Shown here piece after piece: positions 2,311 through 48,902 of a stretch of DNA of 64,000 bases; within the stretch, counting starts at the first letter, position 1; each line of letters begins with the position of its first letter. Source of the stretch: Candidatus Uhrbacteria bacterium RIFCSPLOWO2_01_FULL_47_17 (lineage in GTDB: Bacteria; Patescibacteriota; Patescibacteriia; UBA9934; GWF2-40-263). Location of the stretch: assembly GCA_001791305.1 (NCBI GenBank), contig MGEI01000005.1, forward strand, positions 146,698 to 210,697. Direction: 5' to 3'. The notes beneath the pieces were generated by a model. The model was not told the origin of the DNA. It made no database searches and was given only the letters and a program-made list of their open reading frames with translations. The position numbers were made by a program, and so were the translations under genes.

Positions 2311-2363
2311 TTATACTAAACGCATTCTTAATTCGTACGGGAGGGTCGCGACCCTCCCCTACA
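2311..2363. repeat. conserved about 50-nt leader element ending in palindrome GGGAGGGTCGCGACCCTCCC + CTACA; same family as 6301-6355, 34378-34403, 47141-47164 and 48061-48084
   Basis: cattcttaattcgtacGGGAGGGTCGCGACCCTCCCctaca sits between the two paralogs; a near-identical arrangement (cattgattcgtattcgtaGGGGAGGCTCGCGAGCCTCCCCtaca) lies upstream of the PfkB gene at 6370. Confidence 0.6.
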
Positions 2364-3300: not shown

Positions 3301-4200
3301 ATGTTGAAATTCTCTCTTGGTCCAAAAGTTCGCCAACCTCTTCATCTCCACGATAAAAAACTCAAGGCTCTTGAAAAAAAAGCGAGCGAGATTCGTGAGG
3401 ACTTGATTGAGATGCTTGTCGAAGCAAGATCTGGTCATTCTGCCGGCCCTCTTGGTATGGCGGATATTTTTACAACGCTCTATTTTCACGTCATGGTTCA
3501 CGACCCAAAACACCCAGACTGGAAAGATCGCGATCGCTTGGTTCTCTCAAACGGTCACATCACCCCAATCCGATACGTCACCATGGCGCACGCAGGATAT
3601 TTTCCAAAAAAACTGCTCATGACGCTCCGTAAAATGGGTTCCCCACTTCAAGGACATCCAGAATATGAATGGATGCCCGCGCTTGAGACCACATCCGGTC
3701 CACTCGGCTCTGGATCCTCTCAAGCCGCCGGTATGGCATATGCCGCCCTCATGGATAAATCTCCATGGCGTGTTTATTGTTGCATGTCTGACGGCGAACT
3801 CGAGGAAGGACAGTCTTGGGAAGCAATTCAGTTTGCCGGCGCAAACAAGCTGTACAATCTCACCATGATTATTGATCGCAACAACATTCAGATTGATGGA
3901 CCGACAGAGGAAATCATGCCGCTTGAACCGCTTGCCGCCAAGTTTGAAGCGTTCGGATTGAATGTGATTCGCTGTGCAGGAAATGACATTCGCGATTTTG
4001 TGACGGCCGTCGAGCGAGCACAAGGAGTGTCTGACAAATGTAGTGTGATTATTGCAGACACCATTCCAGGCTACGGAGTGGATTTTATGGAATACGATTT
4101 TCTTTGGCACGGAAAGCCACCAGCAAAAGGGAAAGAAGCAAAAGACGCGTTGAAGGATCTGCGAACGCTCTGGGGAAAAATTCAATCTGAGCACGAATAA
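3301..4200 (+). CDS. transketolase, N-terminal (TPP-binding) subunit of a split transketolase
   Basis: SGHSAGPLGMADIFTTLYF, GHITP, GPLGSGSSQAAGMA, CMSDGELEEGQSWEA. The track ORF starts upstream at 3229; ATG at 3301 (MLKFSLGP) gives the conventional N-terminus. Confidence 0.85.
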   Translation: MLKFSLGPKVRQPLHLHDKKLKALEKKASEIREDLIEMLVEARSGHSAGPLGMADIFTTLYFHVMVHDPKHPDWKDRDRLVLSNGHITPIRYVTMAHAGYFPKKLLMTLRKMGSPLQGHPEYEWMPALETTSGPLGSGSSQAAGMAYAALMDKSPWRVYCCMSDGELEEGQSWEAIQFAGANKLYNLTMIIDRNNIQIDGPTEEIMPLEPLAAKFEAFGLNVIRCAGNDIRDFVTAVERAQGVSDKCSVIIADTIPGYGVDFMEYDFLWHGKPPAKGKEAKDALKDLRTLWGKIQSEHE

Positions 4201-4201
4201 T

Positions 4202-5341
4202 ATGAGCACAAAGAAAATACAAAAAGGATTAAACCCCGCCATGTTTCTCGCTCGTAACCTGCTCGACACAAAATCCCTCAAGCAAATACCCACTCGAAAT
4301 GGTTATGGTGAAGGCGTGGTCGAGGCTGGTAAGCGCGACAAAAATGTCGTTGTCCTTTGTTGTGATTTAACCGAATCAACCAGATCCGAAGCGTTTAAAA
4401 AAGCGTTCCCAGATCGATTCGTGCAAATGGGCGTTGCGGAACAATCGCTTGCAAGTATCGGTGCCGGAATGGCGATGGCGGGAAAAGTTCCATTCATTTC
4501 GAGCTACGCAACGTTCTCGCCTGGCCGCAACTGGGAACAGATTCGCACAACGATTGCGCTTCAAAACTCAAACGTAAAGATCGCGGGCGCACACTCCGGC
4601 CTCTCGGTGGGCCCCGACGGCGCAACACACCAAATGCTCGAGGATATTATTATCACGCGTGCCATTCCAAACATGGTCGTTGAGGTACCCTGCGACATGA
4701 TCGAAACACGTAAGACAACAATCGCCGGAGCAAAAATGGTCGGGCCATTTTATTTCCGCTTCGCTCGCGCTGCATCACCCGTGTTTACAACCGAGAAAAC
4801 ACCATTCAAACTCGGGCGCGCGGAAGTCTACCGATTCGGAAATGATCTTACTCTCGTTGCCGCCGGCCCCCTCCTCTACGAAGCGCTCCTCGCGGCAGAT
4901 GCGCTTTCGAAGGAGCACGGAATCGAATGTCGTGTGATCAATTCGCACTCAATCAAGCCGTTCGACGAAAAAACGATCATTACTGCTGCAAAAGAAACAG
5001 GTGCGATCGTCACAATCGAAGAAGGACAAGTAAGCGGCGGTCTCGCGGGTGCTGTATGCGAAACACTCGCACTCACAACTCCCGTTCCGGTCGAACGTGT
5101 CGGGACGCAAAACCAGTTCGGCGAATCCGGTGAACCCGCACAAGTCCTTGAAGCCTTCGGTCTCACTGCGCCCTTCATCGCCCTTGCCGCCGTGCGCGTG
5201 CTTGATCGCAAACTCGGGCACCCCGTCACAAAAATCCCCGCACATATCCAAGGAGCCGAAGTGCGCCGCATGATGATGCGAAAAGAAATCTTCGAAGAAG
5301 CCCTTTCGAGAGCCCCAAAAAAATGGGGAGGAAACCATTGA
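4202..5341 (+). CDS. transketolase, C-terminal (pyrimidine-binding) subunit
   Basis: FVQMGVAEQSLASIGAGMAMAGKVPF, GPDGATHQMLEDI, C-terminal transketolase_C region; immediately follows the N-terminal subunit. Confidence 0.85.
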   Translation: MSTKKIQKGLNPAMFLARNLLDTKSLKQIPTRNGYGEGVVEAGKRDKNVVVLCCDLTESTRSEAFKKAFPDRFVQMGVAEQSLASIGAGMAMAGKVPFISSYATFSPGRNWEQIRTTIALQNSNVKIAGAHSGLSVGPDGATHQMLEDIIITRAIPNMVVEVPCDMIETRKTTIAGAKMVGPFYFRFARAASPVFTTEKTPFKLGRAEVYRFGNDLTLVAAGPLLYEALLAADALSKEHGIECRVINSHSIKPFDEKTIITAAKETGAIVTIEEGQVSGGLAGAVCETLALTTPVPVERVGTQNQFGESGEPAQVLEAFGLTAPFIALAAVRVLDRKLGHPVTKIPAHIQGAEVRRMMMRKEIFEEALSRAPKKWGGNH

Positions 5342-6300: not shown

Positions 6301-6355
6301 TTATAATTTGCGCATTGATTCGTATTCGTAGGGGAGGCTCGCGAGCCTCCCCTAC
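6301..6355. repeat. conserved leader element with palindrome GTAGGGGAGGCTCGCGAGCCTCCCCTAC, preceded by tgttataat
   Basis: same architecture as 2311-2363; ends about 15 nt before the ATG at 6370. Confidence 0.6.
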
Positions 6356-12684: not shown

Positions 12685-12785
12685 AGGTAATTTTTGTAGT
12701 CCGAGGCTTTAGCCTTGGTTGCTTCGAGCAGAATAGCAAACGCAAATAAAAAACACCAGAATTTCTTCTGATGTGAGGTGTCTAC

Positions 12786-16562: not shown

Positions 16563-16868
16563 AATGTAAACTTGCTGTTCTCACGAACAACAATTGAAGA
16601 TCAACAGAACTTATTCTAAACCTAATTTTTTCTGGTACGTGCGTACTCTGTGAACTCTCTTATGCAAGAGAGGTTGTAGAGCTCGACCTATTAGTACTGC
16701 TCGGCTGAACATCTTACGATGCTTACACCTACAGCCTATCAACCTGCTAGTCTCGCAGGGGTCTCAAATGAAGACTTATCTTTGGATCGGCTTCACGCTT
16801 AGATGCTTTCAGCGTTTATCCGAACCGAACGTAGCTACCCAGCGATGCCCTTGGCAGGACAACTGGTG

Positions 16869-16908
<40 letters not shown>

Positions 16909-16944
16909 TGGATTCCATCAATCTTCGACGCCCATGGTAGATAG

Positions 16945-16996
<52 letters not shown>

Positions 16997-17027
16997 TGGC
17001 GAACAGCCAAACCCTTGGGACCTTCTA

Positions 17028-17063
<36 letters not shown>

Positions 17064-17604
17064 GAACCACGCCGTCGCTGTGGACGCTTGGGCGTGACTA
17101 GCCTGTTATCCCCGGAGTAGCTTTTATCCGATGAGCTTCCGCCGTCCTATTTCGTACGGTCGGATCACTAACTTCTGCTTTCGCAACTGCGCGACTTGTA
17201 AGTCTTGCAGTAAAGCTGGCTTCTGCGTTTGCACGTCCAGCGCGATTTCCATCCGCGCCAAGCCAACCTTTGTAAACGCCTCCGTTACATTTTGGGAGGC
17301 ACCCGCCCCAGGTAAACTACCCACCAGATCCTGTCCCTCCCTCCGGTTTCACGGAAGGTGGTTAGACTTTACACAACGCAAGGGTGGTATCTCACTGGTG
17401 CCCGAAGGCTCCCACCTATTCTGAACATGCGGAACATAAAATCAAGACCAAGTTGTAGTAAAGCTTCACGGGGTCTTTTCGTCTTACCACGGGAAGTGAG
17501 CATCTTCACTCACATTGCAATTTCGCCGAGTACATTGTTGAGAGAGTCTCCAAGTCGTTATGCCATTCGTGCAGGACGGAACTTACCCGTCAAGGAATTT
17601 CGCT

Positions 17605-18330
17605 CTTTGTTGTTACGATCCATTGATCGACGTAGTCATTTCTGCCACGTTCTGCATGTCACCATGCAGGTCGGACTCTATCTTCTTCGAAGGTTTCGAA
17701 GTCTGGCGTATAGTCTCTGAGGATTCCAGAAATTTTGATGGAACTTTTCGATTCATCAATTGGATAATCTTTGCAATTTCTTTCTGACCTTGATGATTCT
17801 TGTGCGTTCCTTCCTTCATCATTTGAAGGAGCTGAGCAAAGAGTTCAAAATCATTTTTCTTTGAAGTTTGCAAAGAGTATTTTTGGAAGAACGGAATAAT
17901 CTTCTCTCGAAGATCTTCTTGCGATCTTACACAATACTTTAGCAATGGTTCTCTGTGATTATCATGACGAGTGTTCTGATAAATCTGACCGCATCCGAAA
18001 TACTCACGAATGAGTTCCAGACTTGATCGACTTTTCATACCTTGTGTCACAACAAACTCAGGAAACACCTGCCATCCAAGGCTTGTGGTTTTGTTTCGAA
18101 TCAAACTGACTGAGAAGCAACCCTCTCCGTCAACAAATCCGCAAATCCACCACGCCATTTCTAGTCTTTCCTGCTGATTGTCTCGTTTTTTTATCATACT
18201 ATGGTTATATTTTACCATAGAGTGAACGAGGTGTTCCAGCATATAGCCAAATTTTTCTTTATCTACGTCTGTGAGGCATCACAGTTCGATAATGAGAGGT
18301 CATTCACCTCACTAAGGCAGCTTTTATTTC
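17605..18330 (-). mobile_element. 23S rRNA intron (likely group I) in domain IV, inserted within the conserved CCUAAGGU^AGCGAAAUUCC sequence, carrying a LAGLIDADG homing-endonuclease ORF
   Basis: 23S similarity breaks after ...caaggaatttcgct (17604) and resumes at accttaggacgattatagtt (18331); about 726 nt in between. Confidence 0.7.
17613..18242 (-). CDS. LAGLIDADG homing endonuclease (intron-encoded)
   Basis: WICGFVDGEGCFSVS motif (LAGLIDADG variant), 209 aa, entirely inside the 23S intron. Confidence 0.75.
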   Translation of the reverse strand: MLEHLVHSMVKYNHSMIKKRDNQQERLEMAWWICGFVDGEGCFSVSLIRNKTTSLGWQVFPEFVVTQGMKSRSSLELIREYFGCGQIYQNTRHDNHREPLLKYCVRSQEDLREKIIPFFQKYSLQTSKKNDFELFAQLLQMMKEGTHKNHQGQKEIAKIIQLMNRKVPSKFLESSETIRQTSKPSKKIESDLHGDMQNVAEMTTSINGS

Positions 18331-19182
18331 ACCTTAGGACGATTATAGTTATCGCCGGCGTTCATCCGCGCTTCAGTCGAAAGCTTTGACCCCGAAGGAT
18401 CTAACCCCCTTCCTTAACGTTCGGACACTGGCCAGGCATCAGCCCCTATACTTCACTTTGCAGTTTTGCAGGGACCTGTGTTTTTGGTAAACAGTCGCTT
18501 GGAGTCTTTCGCTGCGGGTCGCCCCCTCACAGGGGCAACCAGGCCTTATCCCGAAGTTACGGCCGTTGTTTTGCCGAGTTCCTAAACAATGTTTCTCTCG
18601 TACGCCTTAGTGCATTACGCACCCACTCACCTGTGTCGGTTTACGGTACGGGTCTCTATCACATTAGCCTTAGCGGCTTTTCTTGGCTCCGTGTTCTTTC
18701 CCCTTGTTTCCTGTTGCCAGAAAACTTGCGATCATATTCGTGCTCTGGATTAAACCAAGCGTGGTGGATTTGCCTGCCACGCGCCTAAATACGCCCAACG
18801 TCATAGCCATAGGACGCGGGAAATTTCACGAAGCGTCCCCGCTTCAGTGTGATAAAAAGTGCAGGAATATTAACCTGCTATGCATCGACTACGCCTTTCA
18901 GCCTCGCCTTAGCACCCGACTAACCCTGGGACGATTTGCGTTGCCCAGGAACCCTTAAGTTTACGGCGGACGGGGTTCTCACCCGTCTTTTTGCTACTCA
19001 TGCCAACATTCTCCCTTCGCATCGCTCCACCATGGGTCACCCCTTTGGCTTCAGCGCAATACGAATGCTCTCCTACCGCTTAACATTTAAAAATGTTAAA
19101 CCCTCAGCTTCGGCACATCATTTAGCCCCGGTACATTTTCGGCGCAGAAAAACTTGACCAGTGAGCTATTACGCTATCTTTA

Positions 19183-19213
<31 letters not shown>

Positions 19214-19792
19214 TTGTTTAAGTCTTTCCACCACCTTTTACACTTAATGATGATTTTGGGGCCTTAGCTTGAGATCTGGGCTGTTTCCCTTTCGACGTAT
19301 GGAGCTTAGCCCCCATCGTCTGACTGCCGGGAACACATGTTGGTATTCGGAGTTTGATTAGAGTCGCTACCCGAAGGCGCAAACTCGATTCAGTGCTCTA
19401 CCCCCAACACATTATTTACCGACGCTAGCCCAAAAGCTATCTCGGAGAGAACCAGCTATTACCGAGTTCGATTGGAATTTCTCCGCTATCCACAACTCAT
19501 CCCCGTGTTTTGCACGGCACGTGGGTTCGGCCCTCCACGAACTGTTACATTCGCTTCAGCCTGGTCATGGATAGGTCACCCGGTTTCGGGTTATGTGCGC
19601 GCCACCAATATTTCGCGGATTAACGCTCGCTTTCACTATGGCTTCGTCCCGGAGGACTTAACCAAGCGACGCACAACACACTCGTTGGCTCATTCTTCAA
19701 TAGGAACGCCATGACCCACTCTCCGCCTTGCGGCTTCGAGGGGCGCTGACTCCTTGTAAGTATACGATTTCAGATACTATTTCATTCCCCTT

Positions 19793-19826
<34 letters not shown>

Positions 19827-21094
19827 GTACACTATCGATCAGAACATGTATTTAGCTTTGCCAGATAGTCCCGGCAGATTCCTACAGGATTTCACGAGTC
19901 CCGTAGTACTCAAGAACAGTAATCATAATGACGTAATATATTTCGCGTACAGGACTTTCACCTTCTATGGTGTGACGTTCCAGTCACTTCCCCTATATAT
20001 TACATGGATTTCATTATCCGTTTTTTGAAGAAAACGACACTACCGTCTTACAACACCTATCTCTCGCAACGACTTCAATCTTTCGCATCCATTCACACAC
20101 AGTCTTGCGACTCCATGCTTACAAACACTTCACGAGAGAGGTTTGAGCTGTTCCCTTTTCGCTCGCCACTACTAAGGGAATCTATTCGTTTCGCGTTTCC
20201 ATACGACGTGCTGTCGGGTAAACCCGACTGGCCGCATGAAAACGTTAAACGAAATTGTTTTTTCTTTTCCTCTGGCTACTGAGATGTTTCACTTCACCAG
20301 GTGCCCTCCTTGCAACTATGTATTGATTGCAAAGTAATGCGGTATGAACCGCATTGGGTTGCCCCATTCGGATATCTTCGGATCAAAGGTTGTTTGCCAC
20401 CTCCCCGAAGCTTTTCGCAGGCTACTACGTCCTTCGTCGGCATGTTCTGTCAAGCCATCCTTCGTATACTCTTATTAATATGCTCTACAACCACTCTTAT
20501 TTAAGAGTGGTTCACTTCTTTGTGGTTTCTCTAATTCTGTTGATCTTCAATTGTAATGTTCGTGCGACCCTTGAAGGGTTTACCGAAATCTGTTTGATTC
20601 AAGGATCTGTTCTGGCCTTGAGGCCAGAGCTGAGCTACGACGCGAGAGTCGGAACTCAGCTCTAGGCACAAGAGACAAAGTGATGGAGTGGTTGAGTGGT
20701 GGAGTGAAGGTACTTGGCTTTTTGTTGAGAAGACACTATAAAACCGCCTTGTGGGCGGTCTTCAAGCAACAAAATTGTTACGATGAAGATCGTCCCTTAT
20801 ATTTGGTTTGCGTTACATGTGAACATATCCCCTTGTTCTCCGTAAGCTCCTTCTCCTCTCCATCCCATCAGCGGACCCATCTTCATGTGGGTCGATCAGC
20901 CAGATTATTCTTGGGACAAAGAAGAAGAAACGTATTCGATTTAAGTGGTGGAAGTTTAACGGAAGCCGAAAAGACTGTCAAGGGAATTTGTCCCAATTGT
21001 TTCCACAGGCATGTTTAACGATTTTATCTTGACAAAACCCCCATTTTCCGCTATGATTGTCTGATCCAAACGTTGGATCAACCAAGGAGGAGAG

Positions 21095-26190: not shown

Positions 26191-26862
26191 TCACTCAATT
26201 TCAATCTCCCCAATCGACCCAATCCGTTTCCACGCCACATCGTCTCTCTCATGCGCATAATCATGCTTCGCTCCTGGTCTTACGATGCGGTAGAGCTGGA
26301 TCGGTAATCCGGCGTCCACTATTGGGTTCAGTTCATTCGGGCTGTCGTCGACGAATGCGATCGGACAGACCTCCCCCTGCCCCATTACCTGACCACCCCC
26401 TAGCCCCCTCCTTATAAAGGAGGGGGTTTCCGAGAGCATTTCTCGCAACACCGTCACTTTCAAATTGTTCGGCCCCGCGATTCGGATCGTGTCGAAGTAA
26501 TCATTCAAACCTGTCGAGGCGATCTTTGATCGTTGATACTCCGCGTTTCCGTAGGTCAGAATCGAAAACGTATGCGGCGGTCTGTGTTTCTCAAAAAACG
26601 GCACGACGTCATCATAAACGAGACTCGAGCCGATACTTTGCGCGTGAACGAGAAAATTTTGGACAAGCGTATCAACTTCCGACTCGGAAATTCCACACAT
26701 GAGTGCGTGCGCGCGATGTGTCCAACCGATTGCGTTTAAAATTCCCATTTGCTTGATGGCGACTTCACGATCAACTCCAAGACCCACAAGAATTTCCAGC
26801 CATTCAGACCAAATTTTTTCTGTGTTGAAAAGCGTGGAGTCGAAGTCACAGACGAGGTGCAT
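26191..26862 (-). CDS. HAD-superfamily hydrolase (phosphatase)
   Basis: motif I LVCDFDSTLF starts at residue 3 when ATG 26862 is used (the track start at 26922 would translate the promoter repeat array); FVDDSPNEL motif III. Confidence 0.75.
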   Translation of the reverse strand: MHLVCDFDSTLFNTEKIWSEWLEILVGLGVDREVAIKQMGILNAIGWTHRAHALMCGISESEVDTLVQNFLVHAQSIGSSLVYDDVVPFFEKHRPPHTFSILTYGNAEYQRSKIASTGLNDYFDTIRIAGPNNLKVTVLREMLSETPSFIRRGLGGGQVMGQGEVCPIAFVDDSPNELNPIVDAGLPIQLYRIVRPGAKHDYAHERDDVAWKRIGSIGEIEIE

Positions 26863-26870
26863 AGGGAAAG

Positions 26871-26960
26871 GTTGGCAAGGTTTGCGGGGTTGGCGATGTT
26901 GGCAAAAATTATGAATCGGCACAATGCAAACCTTGCAAACTTTGCCAACCTTGCAAACCC
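26871..26960. promoter_or_regulatory. inverted arrays of 9-bp repeats (GGTTGGCAA GGTTTGCGG GGTTGGCGA TGTTGGCAA ... rc) flanking the -10 box (cataat, minus strand) of the HAD-hydrolase promoter
   Basis: same 9-mer family and same flank-the-minus-10 geometry as 8266-8396. Confidence 0.5.
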
Positions 26961-30125: not shown

Positions 30126-32750
30126 ATGAAACAAAATCTGATTTTTCTGTTTGCCTTGTTTGCGATCTTGTTTGGATCTGTCCCAACGTTCGCAAACGCA
30201 TCCACACCACCAAGCATCGTGATTTCCGAAATCGCGTGGGCGGGATCTTCGCTCTCAACATCTGATGAGTGGATCGAGCTTGCAAACATCACGAACAATC
30301 CCGTCGACGTTTCCGGATGGAGCCTTGTGGGCGCCTCGAACACACCCATCATCTTCCCCGCCGGAAGCACTATCGACCCACATTCAACATTTCTCATCAC
30401 CAACTATGCACACACAAATACAAGCTCAACACTCAACACACAACCACAAATCATCACGACCCTGGTCTCGATCCCAAATGACAAACTCGCCCTCACGCTC
30501 ACGTCACAAATGGGAAGCGTGGTCGATTCCGCCAGCAACGGAGGAAATCCTCTCGCGGGAGCGTCTGGCGGAACTGGAAGCACGGCTGATGGACGATACA
30601 GATCCATGGAACGACTAAATTTTTCTCTCGAAGGCACAAGCAAAGAAGCGTGGTCAAACGCAGAGACCTCGAATGGATTCAAAAACGAGGTGCTCGATCA
30701 AGGCACGCCGGGAAGTCTCAATACTTCTCTACAAGTTGCGTTGATCGAAACACAATCTACAACGGTTGCAATGACAACGGACACAGTTGTGGAAGCGAAT
30801 ACCTCGTCACAACCTATTCCTGCAGAAACAACAGAACCAATAGAACCAGACCAAATTTGTGAAGATGTGGCGATTGATAATGTTCCAGTACCAGATGAAC
30901 CAAACATGACGAATGGAACAATCGAGGAAGTCGTGACAGTTGTTTCCGACCCTCCTCCGGCCTCTCAAGCCCCTCAAGCCTCTCCCACCTCTCCAGCCCT
31001 TCCCCCAACCCCTCCCCCACAAGGCACGCTGCGCATCAACGAAATCTATCCACGTCCGGGAACAGGCGAATCCGAATGGGTGGAACTTGAAAATAATTCA
31101 ATGTATCCAGTCGTCACAAACGGTTGGAGTATCCTCGATGCAAGCGGTGCTGCAACCGCGCTACCAGATGGCGTTGTTTCTCCGGGTTCCTATCTCGTGA
31201 TCGAAAATCCAAAAGGCAAATTGAATAATGACGGTGACTCCGTGATCCTGAAAGATGCGAGTGGATCGACTGTCGAATCAGTTCTTTATAACGCAGACCT
31301 CGGAAGTGTTCCGGATATGGGAGAGTCACTTGTTCGAGTCGATGCTTCAACGCTTACGATCTCGATCACACCAACAAAGAATAGTTCGAACACTCTCACG
31401 CCTCGACCACCAAAACCAACAACGACAATCGTAAGCAATACATCGAATGGAACCAACGCAACCAATGACGAACCTGTTGCGACGAATGTGGAAGTCGTTG
31501 CAACAACATCTGTCGTGCCCGAATCGAATGGATACCCACAAGAGGCACCCCTACAAACACAACAAGTTCCGATCATAAAAACAATTCGTCTGTCCGAATT
31601 TTATCCAAACACCGATGGACACGATGCGACCGATGAATTTATTGAACTTGAAAACACGGGTGATCAACCTGTTTCACTCGATGGCTGGGTCCTGAACGAC
31701 TTAGGAGGAACCAAATTCACTTTTACAAAAGATGCTTCGATTGCCGCGCACACATTCAAAGCATTCTTGCGTCCGGACACAAAAATCAGTCTTAATAATG
31801 ACGGCGATACCATCACGCTCACCGCGCCAGATGGCACGATCGTTGATACACAAACTTATGATCAAGCAAAAACCCTCCTCACGTACGCACGCACAAAAGA
31901 CGTTTGGAATTGGACACAAACAGGTACACCACATGAACCAAATACTCTTTCGGGAAACAGCGCTTCGGTTCAACCAACAACTCCAAACAATGCTTCAACC
32001 ACACAATCCAACGGGGCCAAGTCCACTGCCTTGTTAACGATCTCGGAAGTAAAACAACGCACAGACGGAACGCGTGTAAAAATCCAAGGTGTTGTGACTG
32101 CTCTTCCAAACACATTCAACTCACAGACGATGTACGTACAAGACAGCACGGGCGGCATTCAAATTTTCAAAAGTGATTGCCGATTTCCAACGCTTGTTGA
32201 AGGTCAGTCGATCACGGTGAGTGGAATTCTGTCGCACATAAACGGTGAGGCTCGTATTAAAGTGATGAACCAAACATCTCTTGCCGTCGGATCCCTCGTC
32301 GAAGCTATCACGCCATCTACCTTTACATCTGGCGATGATTCTTCTGTTGGCTCACTCATGACCATCGCAGGAATCATCACATCTAAATCCGGTACACGTC
32401 TTGCGCTCGATGTTGATGGCGAAATGTTCAATGTAGATCTTCCAAAAACAACAACAGCTGTGCATCGAACAGGAGAGCGTGTGCAAGTGAGTGGCATCTT
32501 AGCGAAAAATAAATCGGGCGATGTCTTAAAAGCGCGCTCCGAACAAGATGTCACATCACTTCCAAAAGAACTTGTTGAACAGCCAGCACCAGACATCACA
32601 GCTGTAGGAGCACAAGAACCAAAAGAAACTCTCGCGATTGTCTTAATCCTCCTCGCTTCGCTCGCCTTCCTTGGTCTCAAACTCCGCCCATATCTTTACA
32701 CACTCACCCAATCCTATGGACGAAAAACATCTCTCCGTCCTCGATCTTAA
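30126..32750 (+). CDS. large cell-surface protein with three lamin-tail (LTD) domains, Thr/Pro-rich linkers, a C-terminal OB-like domain and a C-terminal TM anchor
   Basis: ATG 30126 gives signal peptide MKQNLIFLFALFAILFGSVPTFANA; LTD signatures ISEIAWAGSS..DEWIELANIT..VSGWSL, INEIYPRPGTGESEWVELEN..NGWSI, LSEFYPNTDG..DEFIELENTG..LDGWVL; C-terminus LAIVLILLASLAFLGL. Confidence 0.75.
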   Translation: MKQNLIFLFALFAILFGSVPTFANASTPPSIVISEIAWAGSSLSTSDEWIELANITNNPVDVSGWSLVGASNTPIIFPAGSTIDPHSTFLITNYAHTNTSSTLNTQPQIITTLVSIPNDKLALTLTSQMGSVVDSASNGGNPLAGASGGTGSTADGRYRSMERLNFSLEGTSKEAWSNAETSNGFKNEVLDQGTPGSLNTSLQVALIETQSTTVAMTTDTVVEANTSSQPIPAETTEPIEPDQICEDVAIDNVPVPDEPNMTNGTIEEVVTVVSDPPPASQAPQASPTSPALPPTPPPQGTLRINEIYPRPGTGESEWVELENNSMYPVVTNGWSILDASGAATALPDGVVSPGSYLVIENPKGKLNNDGDSVILKDASGSTVESVLYNADLGSVPDMGESLVRVDASTLTISITPTKNSSNTLTPRPPKPTTTIVSNTSNGTNATNDEPVATNVEVVATTSVVPESNGYPQEAPLQTQQVPIIKTIRLSEFYPNTDGHDATDEFIELENTGDQPVSLDGWVLNDLGGTKFTFTKDASIAAHTFKAFLRPDTKISLNNDGDTITLTAPDGTIVDTQTYDQAKTLLTYARTKDVWNWTQTGTPHEPNTLSGNSASVQPTTPNNASTTQSNGAKSTALLTISEVKQRTDGTRVKIQGVVTALPNTFNSQTMYVQDSTGGIQIFKSDCRFPTLVEGQSITVSGILSHINGEARIKVMNQTSLAVGSLVEAITPSTFTSGDDSSVGSLMTIAGIITSKSGTRLALDVDGEMFNVDLPKTTTAVHRTGERVQVSGILAKNKSGDVLKARSEQDVTSLPKELVEQPAPDITAVGAQEPKETLAIVLILLASLAFLGLKLRPYLYTLTQSYGRKTSLRPRS

Positions 32751-34259: not shown

Positions 34260-34334
34260 GCAGGAATAGCTCAGGGGTAGAGCTTCTCCTTGCCAAGGAG
34301 AAGGCCGCGGGTTCGAATCCCGTTTCCTGCTCCA
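34260..34334 (+). tRNA. tRNA-Gly (anticodon GCC)
   Basis: GCAGGAATAGCTCAGGGGTAGAGCTTCTCCTTGCCAAGGAGAAGGCCGCGGGTTCGAATCCCGTTTCCTGCTCCA. Confidence 0.9.
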
Positions 34335-34377: not shown

Positions 34378-34403
34378 GGGGAGGGTCGCGACCCTCCCCT
34401 ACA
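34378..34403. repeat. palindromic element GGGGAGGGTCGCGACCCTCCCCTACA (identical core to 2339-2363)
   Basis: read directly. Confidence 0.6.
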
Positions 34404-45503: not shown

Positions 45504-46937
45504 ATGATCTCTGCACATTCTTTAGCCAAAAATTTCACGATCCAGACGGTCGGTAAAGTGTTTTCGATCCTCATTGGACTTGCAACGGTCGCCATTCTGA
45601 CGCGCGCGCTTGGGACGGAACAATTCGGAGAATACACGACCGTCGCTACGTTTCTTCAATTCTTTGGCATCCTCGTCGACTTTGGCCTGACCCTCACGTT
45701 GCTCGTCATGATTTCGGAAAAAGGGGCGAACGAGGAACAAGTCGCGGGAAATTTTCTTGGACTGCGTCTTGTCTCTGGTTTTCTTCTCTTTGCACTTGCC
45801 CCAATCATCGTTCTTGCGTTCCCGTATTCGTCGACCATCAAACAGGCCGTCCTCTTTGGTGCATTCGCCTACTTCCTCATGGGCGGAGCGTCCCTTCTCG
45901 TCGGTGTGTTCCAAAAACATGAGGCGATTTGGCGCGCGGCGCTTGCGGAACTCATCAATCGATTTGTCTTGCTCGTAACAATCGCGATTCTTGCATGGCT
46001 CAACTTCGGCGTGGTTGCGTTTACCGCTGCGGCGATCCTCGCAAACGCCATTTGGTTTTTGGTGATGATCCGCTTCGCACGTCCATTCGTGCATATTCGA
46101 CCACGGTTCGAGATCGAAACATGGAAAAAAATCTTTCTACACAGCTGGCCGATTGCGGTCTCAATCATTTTCAACCTCATGTATCTCAAGGGCGATATTC
46201 TGTTACTCTCCTTATTTCGATCGCAAACCGAAGTTGGATTATACGGCGTCGCTTATCGTGTAATCGATATCCTCACTGTCATTCCAACCATGTTTATGGG
46301 ATTATTACTCCCGTCCCTCACACTTGCCTGGACAAACGGTGATCACGAACAATTTCGCTCGCGACTCTCACGAACATTCGATCTGTTTATGGTCTTTGTG
46401 ATTCCGGTTATCGCCGGCGCGCAAATTCTTGGCGTGCAACTTATTGAACTCATTGCTGGGCAAGGATACGAACAAGGTGGTGCAGTATTAAAAGTACTCA
46501 TTCTCGCCTTATTCGGCGTATTTGTTGGAACACTCTTCGGCCACCTCGTTGTTGCACTCAATAAACAACGCGCCATGATTCTTGGTTATGCCGCAACCGC
46601 TGCTGTAACTCTTGCGGGATACCTCTACGTCATCCCGCGCTTCGGCATGTATGGCGCGGCCTGGATGACGGTGTTTTCCGAAGCATTGATCGCAATCATC
46701 ACATTCATCGTCGTGTTTCGAACATCAGGTGCTCTGCCGCATCTTCGTGTTTTTCTCAAAGCGCTCTTCGCCGCACTTATCATGTCTAGCTTCCTTCTCT
46801 TGCGCCCATCTGTACACGTCGCGCTCGATATTTTATTTGGCGCACTCGTTTATTTTGCGGTGATGGTTCTTATTCGAGGAATTAGGATCGAAGACGTAAA
46901 ACTCATGTTACCTGGGCGTTTCAAAAAATCCGTATGA
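45504..46937 (+). CDS. polysaccharide/oligosaccharide flippase (Wzx/MOP family)
   Basis: 12-14 TM, N-terminal KNFTIQTVGKVFSILIGLATVAILTRALG. Confidence 0.7.
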   Translation: MISAHSLAKNFTIQTVGKVFSILIGLATVAILTRALGTEQFGEYTTVATFLQFFGILVDFGLTLTLLVMISEKGANEEQVAGNFLGLRLVSGFLLFALAPIIVLAFPYSSTIKQAVLFGAFAYFLMGGASLLVGVFQKHEAIWRAALAELINRFVLLVTIAILAWLNFGVVAFTAAAILANAIWFLVMIRFARPFVHIRPRFEIETWKKIFLHSWPIAVSIIFNLMYLKGDILLLSLFRSQTEVGLYGVAYRVIDILTVIPTMFMGLLLPSLTLAWTNGDHEQFRSRLSRTFDLFMVFVIPVIAGAQILGVQLIELIAGQGYEQGGAVLKVLILALFGVFVGTLFGHLVVALNKQRAMILGYAATAAVTLAGYLYVIPRFGMYGAAWMTVFSEALIAIITFIVVFRTSGALPHLRVFLKALFAALIMSSFLLLRPSVHVALDILFGALVYFAVMVLIRGIRIEDVKLMLPGRFKKSV

Positions 46938-48256
46938 TGCTTCTCGTTATCGCTTTGCTCACCATCTTTACATTTCTTACCTGGCGAAATCTCGAAACAG
47001 GTATTCTTTTGTTGTGTGCGTTGCTGCCGAGCTACTTGATTCGATTTTCGATCATGGGTGTGCCGACAACGTTTCTTGAAATAATGGCATTGATTGTGAT
47101 TGGGGTGTGGGGGGTGCGTCGATGCATTACGTTGCGCACGGGCGGGTCACGACCCGCCCCTACACAAAATGATCGTATATTGAACATGGCGATCATTTTG
47201 TTGGTTATTGCCGCCACCATCGGCATTTTCATCTCACCCGATAAACTCGCGGCCGTTGGCGTTTGGAAAGCGTTTTATTTGGAACCGGTATTAATGTTTT
47301 TTGTGATTCGGGACGTCATGGGTACCCACAAAGGGCACCCCTACGAATACGCTTCGAAAATTTTTCGTGCCCTCGGCGTCAATGCTCTCCTTGTTTCGCT
47401 CTTCGGCCTCGTTCAATATTTCTTTTCGATCGGAATCCCCACCCCATGGGATCTTGAACGCCGCATCACGAGCATCTTCGACTATCCAAACGCCCTCGTG
47501 CTCTTCCTCGAACCAATCATTGTCATTTCTTGGTTTGAAATAAAAAAAGTCATCCCTGTTATGGGTGGGGTCCCCAGACCCCGCCTCACCACACTCCTGT
47601 TTTGGATTACAGTTTCAATTCTTGCAACCATCAACGTCTTCCTCGCACAGTCTGAAGCCGGAATTGCGGCACTCATCGTCACAGCTCTTTGTATCCTGGT
47701 TGCCTCGAAACGCACGCGAAAATATGCTCTCGCTTCAATCGTCATTATCAGTGCACTCGTCTTCGCGATCCCAACCTCTCGCACATATCTTGTTGAGAAA
47801 CTCACCTTCCAAGATTCATCCGAACAAGTTCGACTCTCACAATGGAAAGAAACAATCGAGCTTCTCAAGGATCACTCAATCATGGGCGTCGGTCTCTCGG
47901 GCTATCCGATCGCGCTCAAGCCGTATCACCACGATTTACAATACGAAATTTTCCAGTACCCGCATAACATCGTGTTGAACATTTGGGTTGAATTGGGACT
48001 ACTTGGACTCGTCGCGGTTGGATTGCTTGCGTTTCGATTGGGTTATATTGCGTATATGTGGGCGGGTCATGACCCGCCCCTACAGATACGGATGCAACAC
48101 ATAATGTTCTGTGCGATTTTTTTTGAAATAATTTTGCATGGCCTCGTTGATGTTCCCTATTTCAAAAACGACCTTGCGATGATGGTGTGGGTATTGATTG
48201 CGTGCATGATGGTGATGAATCGCGGATCGATATATGAACAAAAAAACCAAGGCTGA
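46934..48256 (+). CDS. O-antigen ligase / Wzy_C-family membrane protein carrying three in-frame palindromic-element insertions
   Basis: polytopic; Wzy_C-like region around 47760-47960; palindromes at 47141-47164, 47567-47582 and 48061-48084 translate as short hydrophilic inserts. Confidence 0.65.
   Translation: MMLLVIALLTIFTFLTWRNLETGILLLCALLPSYLIRFSIMGVPTTFLEIMALIVIGVWGVRRCITLRTGGSRPAPTQNDRILNMAIILLVIAATIGIFISPDKLAAVGVWKAFYLEPVLMFFVIRDVMGTHKGHPYEYASKIFRALGVNALLVSLFGLVQYFFSIGIPTPWDLERRITSIFDYPNALVLFLEPIIVISWFEIKKVIPVMGGVPRPRLTTLLFWITVSILATINVFLAQSEAGIAALIVTALCILVASKRTRKYALASIVIISALVFAIPTSRTYLVEKLTFQDSSEQVRLSQWKETIELLKDHSIMGVGLSGYPIALKPYHHDLQYEIFQYPHNIVLNIWVELGLLGLVAVGLLAFRLGYIAYMWAGHDPPLQIRMQHIMFCAIFFEIILHGLVDVPYFKNDLAMMVWVLIACMMVMNRGSIYEQKNQG
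47141..47164. repeat. palindromic element GGCGGGTCACGACCCGCCCCTACA inside the CDS
   Basis: read directly; near-identical second copy at 48061-48084 (GGCGGGTCATGACCCGCCCCTACA). Confidence 0.6.
48061..48084. repeat. palindromic element GGCGGGTCATGACCCGCCCCTACA inside the CDS
   Basis: read directly. Confidence 0.6.
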
Positions 48257-48902
48257 AGCCTCGGGCTACAAAAAATATATGTCCGTATTCAATCGATCTA
48301 TCAAAACCAATCCAACTGGCAAACCCTCTCTGGGATATTTCCCTTTGCTTCTTGGGCTTATTGTTATTGGAACCATTGGCCTCCAAATTTATAATCGCGT
48401 TCCAACTGCGCCGAGCACACCGATTTTGCTCAAAACCTCGGACATGATTCAGCTTACGCGTTTCGAAGAGATTGCGAATCGTACACAAACCCCCGTCACA
48501 CTTCCTGAAAAACTCTTTGGGAGTTCGCTGTATCTTATTGGCATTTACCCGAGCGCCGTAAAAGACTGGCCTGCAAACTCGGTGTCCTTAGTCTTTGTCA
48601 AAGACAACGCCCGCTTTGTGGAAATGGACGTCCTTCCAAACGTCTCTCTCGAAAAAGTCACACCGCAATACACAGCTTATCCACAAGAAACCATCGCAAT
48701 TGGGGATAACCAAAAAGGACTCCTTATTCATGTGCGAAGCGGCTTTGATTGCACCTCGCCGAAGCCGAACACGGTTCCGGCTATGTGTCTGATTACAAAT
48801 ATGTTGTTATTCGAAAAGAACGGAACCCTCATACAACTCTCCTCAGACGGCAATCACATCACACAAGGTGAGTTGATTGAAATGGCACGATCGATTAAAT
48901 AA
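48234..48902 (+). CDS. hypothetical membrane-anchored protein
   Basis: N-terminal TM (YFPLLLGLIVIGTIGLQIY) then a soluble domain. Confidence 0.45.
   Translation: MNKKTKAEASGYKKYMSVFNRSIKTNPTGKPSLGYFPLLLGLIVIGTIGLQIYNRVPTAPSTPILLKTSDMIQLTRFEEIANRTQTPVTLPEKLFGSSLYLIGIYPSAVKDWPANSVSLVFVKDNARFVEMDVLPNVSLEKVTPQYTAYPQETIAIGDNQKGLLIHVRSGFDCTSPKPNTVPAMCLITNMLLFEKNGTLIQLSSDGNHITQGELIEMARSIK

What the first reader, a model, noticed from the sequence alone, without database searches (positions are those of the whole stretch)
46934..48256. Palindromic-element family inserted in-frame three times in the O-antigen-ligase-like gene (RPE-like behaviour)
Two near-identical elements GGCGGGTCA(C/T)GACCCGCCCCTACA (47141-47164, 48061-48084) and a related GGGGTCCCCAGACCCC hairpin (47567-47582) sit inside one membrane-protein CDS. 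They keep the reading frame and add short hydrophilic peptides (GGSRPAPTQ, AGHDPPLQI, GGVPRPRL). Members of the same hairpin + CCCTACA family occur intergenically at 2339-2363, 6328-6355 and 34378-34403. Intragenic, frame-preserving palindromic insertions are known from Rickettsia palindromic elements. They are notable in a streamlined genome.
Basis: partly seen in the sequence, partly recalled or inferred. Interest (0 to 1): 0.6.

Follow-up and report, generated by a model that had tools for sequence, protein, structure and literature searches.

The report
REP hairpin repeats inside a gene
A membrane-protein gene of a tiny-genome groundwater bacterium (Candidatus Uhrbacteria) carries five copies of 23-26-base hairpin repeats of the known "GTAG-tagged REP" kind, four of them read in frame as extra loop residues; this is a real but already described type of event, seen here in a new lineage.

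Summary
The Wzy_C/O-antigen-ligase-like CDS (46934-48256) holds five GC-rich hairpin elements, not three. Four are in frame and one spans the stop codon. Five more copies lie elsewhere in the window: four intergenic and one in a linker of another protein.

On the opposite strand each element reads GTAG, then a 8-9-bp stem starting GGG, then a 2-5-nt loop. That is the published definition of GTAG-tagged REPs.

The same 24-mer and 25-mer occur in at least 118 genome loci and at least 119 metagenome contigs from many phyla. They sit in frame inside RAYT (Y1 transposase, subclass 2.4) genes just after the HUH motif, a published feature of that subclass. One Patescibacteria RAYT carries a 24-mer identical to the window copy at 47140.

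Orthologue DNA shows the four in-frame copies are lineage-specific and patchy. An AlphaFold model puts each encoded peptide exactly in an inter-helix loop.

No RAYT gene was found in about 81 kb of this genome, so current mobility is inferred, not shown.

In-frame REPs were already catalogued (Di Nocera 2013; Rickettsia RPEs). This is a new member of a known kind, possibly first noted in CPR bacteria. Interest is modest.

The parts
46934..48256 (+). Host CDS, 440 aa, Wzy_C / O-antigen-ligase-like polytopic membrane protein. Its start overlaps the stop of an upstream Polysacc_synt (flippase-like) gene.
   Evidence: Pfam PF04932, E = 3.7e-23. 100% identical to a Candidatus Uhrbacteria RIFCSPHIGHO2_02_FULL_47_44 protein. 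AF2 model has mean pLDDT 86.5.
47140..47163 (+). REP copy, subfamily 1: GGGCGGGTCACGACCCGCCCCTAC (9-bp stem, 2-nt loop, CTAC tag). It encodes T69-T77 (TGGSRPAPT).
   Evidence: -10.1 kcal/mol, z = -4.3. Absent from orthologues P0002, P0003, P0004 and P0006. Coincides with predicted loop 69-77. Identical 24/24 to the REP inside a Patescibacteria RAYT gene, L133:10261-10284.
47320..47344 (+). REP copy, subfamily 2: GGGTACCCACAAAGGGCACCCCTAC. The 8-bp stem has an A.C mismatch, which is a G.T wobble on the GTAG strand. It encodes G130-Y137 (GTHKGHPY).
   Evidence: Shared with orthologue P0002 only. Predicted turn at 132-135. The same 25-mer family is in at least 119 metagenome contigs and inside RAYT genes.
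47564..47589 (+). Degenerate REP: GGTGGGGTC CCCA GACCCCGCC followed by TCAC instead of CTAC. It encodes G211-L218 (GGVPRPRL).
   Evidence: -9.4 kcal/mol, z = -2.5. Shared with orthologue P0003 only. Lowest-confidence loop of the model, 212-217. Tagged relatives GTAGGGCGGGGTCATGACCCCGCCCTAC occur in Faecousia loci.
48060..48083 (+). REP copy, subfamily 1: GGGCGGGTCATGACCCGCCCCTAC. It encodes A377-L383 (AGHDPPL), preceded by W376.
   Evidence: Present at the same site in P0002 and P0003 as GGGAGGGTCG(C/A)GACCCTCCCCTAC, i.e. one stem pair changed C-G to A-T on both sides. Absent from P0004 and P0006. Predicted loop 376-382.
48247..48269 (+). REP copy, subfamily 3: CCAAGGCT GA AGCCTCGG G CTAC. The Wzy TGA stop codon (48254-48256) spans the end of the left stem arm and the 2-nt loop. 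The element also supplies the last residues (NQG) of the Wzy protein.
   Evidence: Sister copy at 12696-12718. Orthologues P0002 and P0004 have a different hairpin (GCGGGGTC-N4-GACCCCGC) across their stop codons.
2339..2362 (+). Intergenic REP, subfamily 1, A-T variant: GGGAGGGTCGCGACCCTCCCCTAC. It lies between two co-directional genes.
6328..6355 (.). Intergenic 'double-foot' REP: GTAGGGGAGGCTCGCGAGCCTCCCCTAC. It is fully palindromic, with a tag at both ends.
   Evidence: -14 kcal/mol, z = -6.3. The double-foot form is described for RAYT subclass 2.4.
34378..34402 (+). Intergenic REP, subfamily 1, A-T variant. It lies between a tRNA gene (34260-34331, +) and the stop of a convergent SpoU methylase gene.
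31530..31554 (+). Decayed REP, subfamily 2: GGATACCCACAAGAGGCACCCCTAC (22/25 identical to the 47320 copy). It is in frame (NGYPQEAPLQ) in a low-complexity linker of a Lamin-tail-domain protein.
   Evidence: It no longer folds well (-2 kcal/mol).
12696..12718 (-). Intergenic REP, subfamily 3: CCAAGGCTAAAGCCTCGGACTAC on the minus strand.

Best explanation
The elements are GTAG-tagged REPs (repetitive 'extragenic' palindromes). Each is a 23-26-nt unit made of a GC-rich hairpin plus a GTAG guide tetranucleotide, which reads CTAC on the strand shown.

They belong to REP families that accompany, and sit inside, RAYT / TnpA-REP genes of subclass 2.4.

Inferred mechanism:
- A RAYT (HUH-Y1 single-strand DNA endonuclease) binds the folded hairpin on single-stranded DNA, cuts next to GTAG, and lets copies be placed at new sites.
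- About 89% of this window is genic, so many insertions hit genes.
- The copies that survive keep the frame, carry no stop, and land in tolerant positions. The main unit is 24 nt, i.e. 8 codons. The CTAC-sense orientation is open in 2-3 of 3 frames.
- Here the tolerant positions are four short inter-helix loops of a Wzy-like membrane protein and its 3' end.
- The encoded Gly/Pro/Arg/Ser-rich peptides simply lengthen those loops.

Shown: element anatomy, family membership by structure, cross-phylum occurrence, residence inside RAYT genes elsewhere, lineage-specific presence, and loop location.

Inferred: RAYT-mediated spread in this lineage, and neutrality of the peptides.
For: 1. Anatomy fits the published REP rule: GTAG 0-2 nt from a fully paired 7-20-bp GC-footed stem with a 2-5-nt loop (rule quoted; family description).

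2. There are ten copies in 64 kb against 0.7 expected by chance.

3. GGGNGGGTCNNGACCCNCCCCTAC occurs in at least 118 genome loci across many phyla. In 160 of 162 copies the two free stem positions are Watson-Crick complementary (A-T or C-G, once G-C). The elements are often head-to-head dimers or double-foot forms.

4. RAYT genes with the subclass 2.4 signature (NH[VIF]H, WQ, YIxNNP) carry these REPs in frame just after the HUH motif. This holds for L021, L071, L087, L131, L132 and L133 (GTAG REPs; the subfamily-1 24-mer in L021, L071, L087 and L133). It also holds for L244, L203, L150, L162, L165, L160 and L235 (subfamily 2). Quentin et al. 2018 report exactly this for subclass 2.4.

5. Presence and absence at the four sites is patchy among orthologues of about 70% identity. 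The peptides are absent from the other 115+ homologues.

6. The four peptides match AF2 loops 69-77, 132-135, 212-217 and 376-382.

7. Reading-frame logic: the copy read in the frame where a CATG loop would give TGA has a CACG loop instead.

8. In-frame single REPs encoding 7-8 residues are already catalogued in other bacteria.
Against: - No Y1_Tnp/RAYT gene was found in the 64-kb window or in about 17 kb of flanks. No Uhrbacteria-labelled RAYT was among the 120 best family hits.
- Three of the four in-frame copies are shared with species about 30% diverged in protein sequence, so most insertions are old and the family may no longer move.
- No empty or filled site pair is clean enough to define the inserted unit, target site or duplication.
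- The 47564 hairpin lacks the tag, and the 31530 copy no longer folds.
- Four of five in-frame copies sit in one 1.3-kb gene, which random insertion plus filtering does not fully explain.
Confidence: 0.8

Rival explanations
1. The copies did not arrive by transposition. They came by short-patch recombination or gene conversion from other REP copies (or from a RAYT gene's internal REP), or by hairpin-templated repair, with no active RAYT in this lineage.
For: - The 47140 and 48060 copies, 920 bp apart in one gene, differ only in one loop base.
- At site 4 the element differs between species by a paired C-G to A-T switch plus both loop bases, as if one family variant replaced another.
- P0004 keeps a sequence resembling only the left arm at site 2.
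- No RAYT was found in 81 kb.
Against: - Conversion needs a pre-existing homologous tract at the target, and new sites such as 47140 have none in orthologues.
- The same REPs are physically tied to RAYT genes in many genomes.
Confidence: 0.1
2. The hairpins are functional structures selected in place, for example mRNA stabilisers, attenuators, translational pause sites or protein-binding sites, rather than selfish repeats.
For: - The stem is kept perfect at site 4 in three species through a two-sided change.
- Intergenic copies sit just downstream of genes, as reported for REPs thought to act as RNA elements.
- G.T wobbles are confined to the GTAG strand in subfamilies 2 and 3.
Against: - The elements are absent from most orthologues, so they are not needed for the gene.
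- Identical 24-25-mers occur in genomes of 23-72% GC and inside transposase genes.
- None of the three subfamily-1 intergenic copies (2339, 6328, 34378) is followed by a T-run terminator.
- No Rfam family matches.
Confidence: 0.06
3. The elements are DNA uptake signal sequences or another species-specific word kept at high frequency by biased uptake.
For: Uptake sequences also occur inside genes and as inverted pairs.
Against: - The same sequences occur across many phyla.
- Density here is only about 1 per 6 kb.
- The elements are structured hairpins with covarying stems.
Confidence: 0.02
4. The elements are an assembly or chimera artefact.
For: None.
Against: The gene sequence is identical in 8 contigs from independent ENA, JGI and NCBI assemblies. 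Orthologues in other species share some of the elements.
Confidence: 0.01

Closest known systems
GTAG-tagged REPs (Di Nocera, De Gregorio & Rocco 2013, PMC3733652; REP rule in Quentin et al. 2018, PMC6006769)
   Same: - Unpaired GTAG tag at one end, 6-13-bp GC-rich stem, and 2-4-nt loop.
- Sub-families that differ by complementary stem residues.
- Singletons, head-to-head dimers and clusters.
- Intergenic copies lie just downstream of ORFs.
- Some copies lie in frame inside ORFs and encode 7-8 residues.
   Different: - The host is a CPR/Patescibacteria genome, which is not in those surveys.
- Half of the copies seen are intragenic, and five sit in one gene.
- The copy number seen is low: 10 in 64 kb.
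- No RAYT has yet been found in this genome.
[quoted passage not shown] 2018)
   Same: - The stem foot is three G-C pairs, and a double-foot GTAG...CTAC form exists (6328-6355).
- The very same 24-mer and 25-mer are found in frame after the HUH motif of subclass-2.4-type RAYT genes, including Saccharibacteria and Patescibacteria ones.
   Different: Here the host gene is an unrelated membrane protein, and the cognate RAYT of this genome is unknown.
Rickettsia palindromic elements (RPE; Ogata et al. 2000, 2002; Claverie & Ogata 2003, as cited in PMC3733652)
   Same: Palindromic repeats are inserted in frame in genes of a reduced genome, adding surface or loop peptides without destroying the protein. 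The GTAG-REP survey equates RPE-4 and RPE-6 with intragenic GTAG-family repeats.
   Different: The classic RPE-1 is a longer palindromic insertion (per; about 100-150 bp from my own knowledge, not checked here) and is Rickettsia-specific. These elements are 23-26 nt and belong to families shared across phyla. No sequence comparison with RPEs was done.
REPINs (inverted REP doublets proposed as the replicating unit; Bertels & Rainey 2011, from my own knowledge)
   Same: In other genomes the same REP occurs as inverted pairs about 85-125 nt apart.
   Different: All copies in this window are singletons or a collapsed double-foot form.

Membership tests
GTAG-tagged REP | GTAG (or GTGG) tetranucleotide 0-2 nt from the foot of the hairpin | tested here: met
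   Nine of 10 copies have it, including the decayed 31530 copy that no longer folds. The 47564 hairpin has GTGA instead, i.e. a degenerate tag.
GTAG-tagged REP | Fully paired basal stem of at least 7 bp with a G/C-rich foot and a loop of 2-5 nt | tested here: met
   Subfamily 1 has a 9-bp stem and 2-nt loop. Subfamilies 2 and 3 have 8-bp stems with one wobble or mismatch.
GTAG-tagged REP | Dispersed repetition within the genome (typically tens to hundreds of copies) | tested here: inconclusive
   Ten copies in 64 kb against 0.7 expected. None were found in a further 17 kb. The rest of the roughly 0.57-Mb genome could not be read.
GTAG-tagged REP | Sub-families differing by complementary changes in the stem | tested here: met
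   C-G versus A-T at stem position 4, within the window, between orthologues, and in 160 of 162 copies across phyla.
GTAG-tagged REP | Cognate RAYT (Y1_Tnp) gene in the same genome | tested here: inconclusive
   None was found in the window or flanks by motif search, tblastn or a family HMM. The literature notes REP-bearing genomes without RAYT.
REPs of RAYT subclass 2.4 | The same REP is found flanking or inside a subclass 2.4 tnpA-REP gene (signature NH[IFV]H, WQ, YIxNNP) | tested here: met
   This was met in other genomes only: L071, L087 and L133 (subfamily 1; L133 is 24/24 identical to the 47140 copy), and L244, L203, L150, L162, L165, L160 and L235 (subfamily 2). Pfam Y1_Tnp was confirmed for L021 and for many homologues.
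REPs of RAYT subclass 2.4 | Stem foot of three consecutive G-C pairs, with double-foot variants | tested here: met
   GGG...CCC foot in subfamilies 1 and 2. Double foot at 6328-6355.
Rickettsia palindromic elements (RPE) | In-frame insertion of a palindromic repeat in otherwise conserved ORFs | tested here: met
   This is a match of behaviour only.
Rickettsia palindromic elements (RPE) | Sequence membership in an RPE family | not tested
   No RPE consensus was available in the tools. At 23-26 nt these elements are much shorter than RPE-1, which describes only as a longer palindromic insertion.
MITE | 70-300-bp element with terminal inverted repeats and a target-site duplication | tested here: not met
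   The units are 23-28 nt, with nothing between the arms but a 2-5-nt loop. No duplication is visible at the junctions.

The most novel reading that the evidence does not exclude
In gene-dense CPR genomes, the REPs that live inside the RAYT reading frame may have become frame-neutral, stop-free 8-codon cassettes. These would colonise protein loops instead of intergenic DNA. Their hairpins would be kept by selection even inside coding sequence, as hinted by the two-sided stem change at site 4 across three species. That would imply a RAYT-REP function at the DNA or RNA level in genomes that have almost no spacer DNA. A corollary is that near-identical REP 24-25-mers are shared across phyla because the gene that moves them carries its own recognition site in its coding sequence.
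Probability: 0.15. Interest if true: 0.55.

Novelty: new member of a known kind. Interest (0 to 1): 0.35.

Why it matters
- It extends GTAG-REP / RAYT biology to the Candidate Phyla Radiation.
- It gives a clean, structure-backed example of how short selfish hairpins lengthen loops of an essential-type membrane protein without breaking it.
- It is a practical warning for annotation and for alignments of CPR proteins. Short Gly/Pro/Arg-rich indels such as GGSRPAPT, AGHDPPL and GTHKGHPY are repeat-derived, not lineage-specific functional motifs.
- The same 24-25-mers appear in genomes of 23-72% GC and inside RAYT genes. This is relevant to how REPs and their transposases travel together.

Tried and rejected
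- **RAYT in this genome:** I looked with an HUH...Y motif regex, with tblastn using three RAYT queries, and with an HMM built from 30 CPR-type RAYTs. The targets were the window and two 10-kb flank loci. Nothing was found. Two encoding-contig look-ups were wasted on wrong ORF boundaries.
- **RAYT in the lineage:** a profile search of the protein database listed Roizmanbacteria, Collierbacteria and 'Patescibacteria group' RAYTs. None labelled Uhrbacteria was in the best 120.
- **Recent mobility:** the 90%-identity cluster has only 439-441-aa full-length members (plus one 124-aa fragment), and 8 contigs are identical.
- **Insertion unit and target site:** orthologue DNA in the loops is too diverged to define them.
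- **RAYT between inverted REP pairs:** I tested ORFs between wide inverted pairs in L089, L117 and L118 as possible RAYTs. They are not; L118 is an array of assorted palindromes.
- **Rfam:** no family covers the elements.
- **Literature:** a text search for the literal 13-mers and for CPR palindromic elements found nothing relevant.
- **Rejected readings:** terminators (no T-run after the hairpins at 2339, 6328 or 34378), uptake sequences and MITEs. See rivals and membership tests.
Full report
**What is there**

The window comes from a Candidatus Uhrbacteria (CPR/Patescibacteria) population from the Rifle aquifer and similar sites. The 440-aa product of 46934-48256 is 100% identical to a protein of Uhrbacteria RIFCSPHIGHO2_02_FULL_47_44. 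It is encoded on at least 23 contigs from NCBI, JGI and ENA assemblies. The gene sequence is identical in the eight contigs I compared.

The protein is a Wzy_C / O-antigen-ligase-family membrane protein (PF04932, E = 3.7e-23). Its start overlaps the stop of a Polysacc_synt flippase-like gene.

**Checking the observation**

- The 24-mer with up to three mismatches hits four sites where shuffles give none.
- CCCCTAC occurs 8 times against 1.23 expected.
- A finder for 'GC-rich hairpin followed within 2 nt by CTAC' returns 11 hits against 0.7 in shuffles. Two hits look like chance: one lies inside a tRNA gene and one is a weak hairpin at 26290. Two hits are the two strands of the one palindromic element at 6328-6355, so the finder accounts for 8 of the elements.
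- The canonical copies fold as single-stranded DNA well below shuffled controls, z = -3.6 to -6.3.

The gene holds more elements than reported.
- A second subfamily, GGGTACCCACAAAGGGCACCCCTAC, is at 47320-47344 (peptide GTHKGHPY).
- A third, CCAAGGCTGAAGCCTCGGGCTAC, is at 48247-48269. The TGA stop of the gene spans the end of its left arm and its loop.
- Each has a sister copy elsewhere. One is at 31530-31554, in frame in a linker of a Lamin-tail-domain protein. The other is at 12696-12718, intergenic.

In total I count ten elements in 64 kb. Five are in frame, one spans a stop codon, and four are intergenic. About 89% of the window is genic.

**Are they insertions?**

In an alignment of 32 orthologues, and then of 119, the four peptides fall in four length-variable segments.
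- The window's segments are 4-6 residues longer than the family median.
- GGSRPAP occurs only in this species.
- [AE]G[HR]DPPL occurs in three, GTHKGHPY in two, and GVPRPR at that site in two.

Orthologue DNA from four related species (about 64-72% protein identity) shows a patchwork.
- Site 1 is filled only in the window.
- Site 2 is filled in the window and P0002.
- Site 3 is filled in the window and P0003.
- Site 4 is filled in the window, P0002 and P0003.
- P0004 and P0006 lack all four.

At site 4 the stem stays perfect in all three species. One pair is C-G in the window and A-T in the other two, and the loop also differs. The A-T form is the variant found at the window's own intergenic copies 2339 and 34378.

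Other orthologues carry unrelated palindrome-like insertions at the same loops (P0003 site 1, P0005/6, P0008, P0010, P0023). These positions therefore tolerate insertions, or attract them.

**Where in the protein**

An AlphaFold2 model built on the 32-sequence alignment has mean pLDDT 86.5 and pTM 0.89. It has non-helical segments at 69-77, 132-135, 212-217 and 376-382. These are exactly TGGSRPAPT, the middle of GTHKGHPY, GVPRPR and WAGHDPP. Residues 212-216 form the only stretch below pLDDT 50.

I counted helices from the conserved loops (165-184 and 291-345). In this family the latter is taken to face outward; that point is established knowledge of WaaL/Wzy proteins and was not tested here. 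On that count all four sites fall on the opposite, cytoplasmic side. This is an inference.

**What the elements are**

Read on the other strand, each element is GTAG, then a stem that starts GGG, then a short loop.
- This is the defining anatomy of GTAG-tagged REPs. The definition is an unpaired GTAG tag, 6-13-bp stems, 2-4-nt loops, and sub-families with complementary stem changes.
- It also meets the operational rule used by Quentin et al. That rule is GTAG or GTGG 0-2 nt from a fully paired 7-20-bp stem with a G/C-rich foot and a loop of 2-5 nt.

These came from Oscillospiraceae, Rhodothermales, Planctomycetes, Anaerolineae, Gemmatimonadales, Saprospiraceae, Gammaproteobacteria, Saccharibacteria and 'Patescibacteria group' genomes. 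In 160 of 162 copies the two free stem positions are Watson-Crick complementary: 100 are A-T, 59 are C-G and one is G-C. Many copies are inverted pairs about 85-125 nt apart or fully palindromic GTAG...CTAC forms.

In subfamilies 2 and 3 the single imperfect stem position is a G.T wobble on the GTAG strand and an A.C mismatch on the other. This marks the GTAG strand as the one that folds.

**Link to RAYT transposases**

Several fetched loci contain Y1_Tnp genes with the motifs NH[VIF]H, WQ and YIxNNP.

In every one I could read at the DNA level, a GTAG REP lies in frame just after the HUH motif.
- L021, L071 (Saccharibacteria), L087 and L133 carry the subfamily-1 24-mer.
- L131 and L132 carry double-foot GTAG REPs with other stems.
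- L244, L203, L150, L162, L165, L160 and L235 carry subfamily 2, read as VGVPLVGT.

The REP inside the Patescibacteria RAYT of L133, a 33%-GC contig, is identical in all 24 bases to the window copy at 47140. It is read in the same frame, as GGSRPAPT.

An alignment of 30 family members shows that the post-HUH linker is always built of such peptides. The family has at least 8000 members, many from CPR bacteria, and several are labelled 'REP element-mobilizing transposase RayT'.

This is not new. Quentin et al. 2018 describe subclass 2.4 (= RAYT group 4) as having long and 'double foot' REPs with three G-C pairs at the stem foot. [quoted passage not shown]

In-frame REPs in unrelated genes are not new either. 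Di Nocera et al. 2013 list them in several species, including single REPs encoding 7-8 residues such as FAGRPAPT and GTASPCPY. They equate the intragenic GTAG-family repeats of Rickettsia conorii with RPE-4 and RPE-6.

**How it most likely works**

*Shown:*
- anatomy and family membership by structure;
- physical association of the same sequences with RAYT genes elsewhere;
- lineage-specific presence;
- location in loops.

*Inferred:*
- A RAYT binds the hairpin on single-stranded DNA, cuts beside GTAG, and copies are placed at new sites.
- In a genome with so little spacer, many copies land in genes and are filtered.

The filter is visible in the sequence.
- The main unit is 24 nt, i.e. 8 codons.
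- In CTAC-sense orientation it is open in all three frames with a CACG or CGCG loop, and in two of three with a CATG loop.
- In GTAG-sense orientation it always has a TAG in one frame.
- All five in-frame copies are CTAC-sense.
- The one copy read in the frame where CATG would give TGA has CACG.

The encoded peptides are rich in Gly, Pro, Arg and Ser, which suits turns.

**Weak points**

- No RAYT was found in the window or in 8.5 kb beyond each end. None labelled Uhrbacteria was in the best 120 family hits.
- Most of the in-frame copies are old, because they are shared with diverged species.
- No clean empty site defines the inserted unit.
- The concentration of four in-frame copies in one 1.3-kb gene needs either unusual tolerance of that protein or local copying. 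Copies 47140 and 48060 differ by one loop base.
- The paired stem change at site 4 could reflect selection on the hairpin or replacement by another family variant.

**Verdict**

The elements are GTAG-tagged REPs of the RAYT subclass 2.4 type. They are inserted in frame four times, plus once across the stop codon, in loop positions of a Wzy-like gene of a CPR bacterium.

The phenomenon is already described in other bacteria. I found no paper reporting it for Patescibacteria in the library searched. It is therefore a new member of a known kind, of modest interest.

Noticed in passing
window 16670-20485 (-), ORF 17613-18242 (-): The 23S rRNA gene is about 890 nt longer than the Rfam model. It contains a LAGLIDADG_1 homing-endonuclease ORF (E = 2.8e-24), so it has an intron-type insertion of the kind often seen in CPR rRNA genes. 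No Rfam intron family reached threshold.
   Followed up: partly
window 26404-26426, inside ORF 26191-26922 (-): A different palindrome without a GTAG tag, CCCCCTCCTTATAAAGGAGGGGG, lies in frame (ETPSFIRRGLG) in a HAD-like hydrolase ORF. It may be another intragenic palindrome family.
   Followed up: no
Orthologues P0003 (L010:~4160-4260), P0005/P0006 (L130), P0008, P0010, P0023: The same four loops of the Wzy protein carry unrelated insertions in other Uhrbacteria, some palindromic at the DNA level (for example the TTCGAC..GTCGAA arms in P0006; P0008, P0010 and P0023 were seen only as protein). Examples are an AT-rich ~100-nt insert at site 1 of P0003 and ARSFDSASSNSAPLKMT at site 2 of P0005/6.
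   Followed up: partly
L009:8762-8777 and L129:2701-2716: Orthologues P0002 and P0004 end their Wzy genes with a GCGGGGTC-N4-GACCCCGC hairpin that runs into the stop codon. The window has a different REP (subfamily 3) at that place. The gene's 3' end is therefore a further insertion hot spot.
   Followed up: partly
L133:10121-10284, L071:460-640, L087:6767-6790, L244, L203, L150 and others: Every RAYT (subclass 2.4 type) gene read at the DNA level has one or more GTAG REPs in frame just after the HUH motif. Some have a second one after the conserved CLFG motif (VGATRGSP). In L131, L132 and L133 this is the only REP within 12-20 kb. Published for subclass 2.4 in PMC6006769, but here seen in CPR genomes and with 24-25-mers shared across phyla.
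   Followed up: yes
L085:7341-7847 (Saccharibacteria): An intergenic, BIME-like cluster of seven different 23-26-nt GTAG REPs sits within 500 bp downstream of a membrane-protein gene.
   Followed up: partly
window, whole length: Nine of the ten REP copies have CTAC on the + strand. The exception is the minus-strand copy at 12696-12718. The palindromic double-foot copy at 6328-6355 carries CTAC on both strands and is counted among the nine.

The + strand is C-rich along the whole window, and the 23S rRNA gene is on the - strand. The folding GTAG strand would therefore lie on the presumed lagging-strand template, as expected for HUH-Y1 enzymes.

This signal is confounded by gene orientation and by the stop-codon filter.
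   Followed up: no
L118:5100-5850 (Oscillospiraceae): A roughly 700-bp array of assorted GC-rich palindromes translates to recurring peptides such as DCHVAALLAMT, GRGLAPA and REGHDPPLQ. It is flanked by two copies of the subfamily-1 REP.
   Followed up: no
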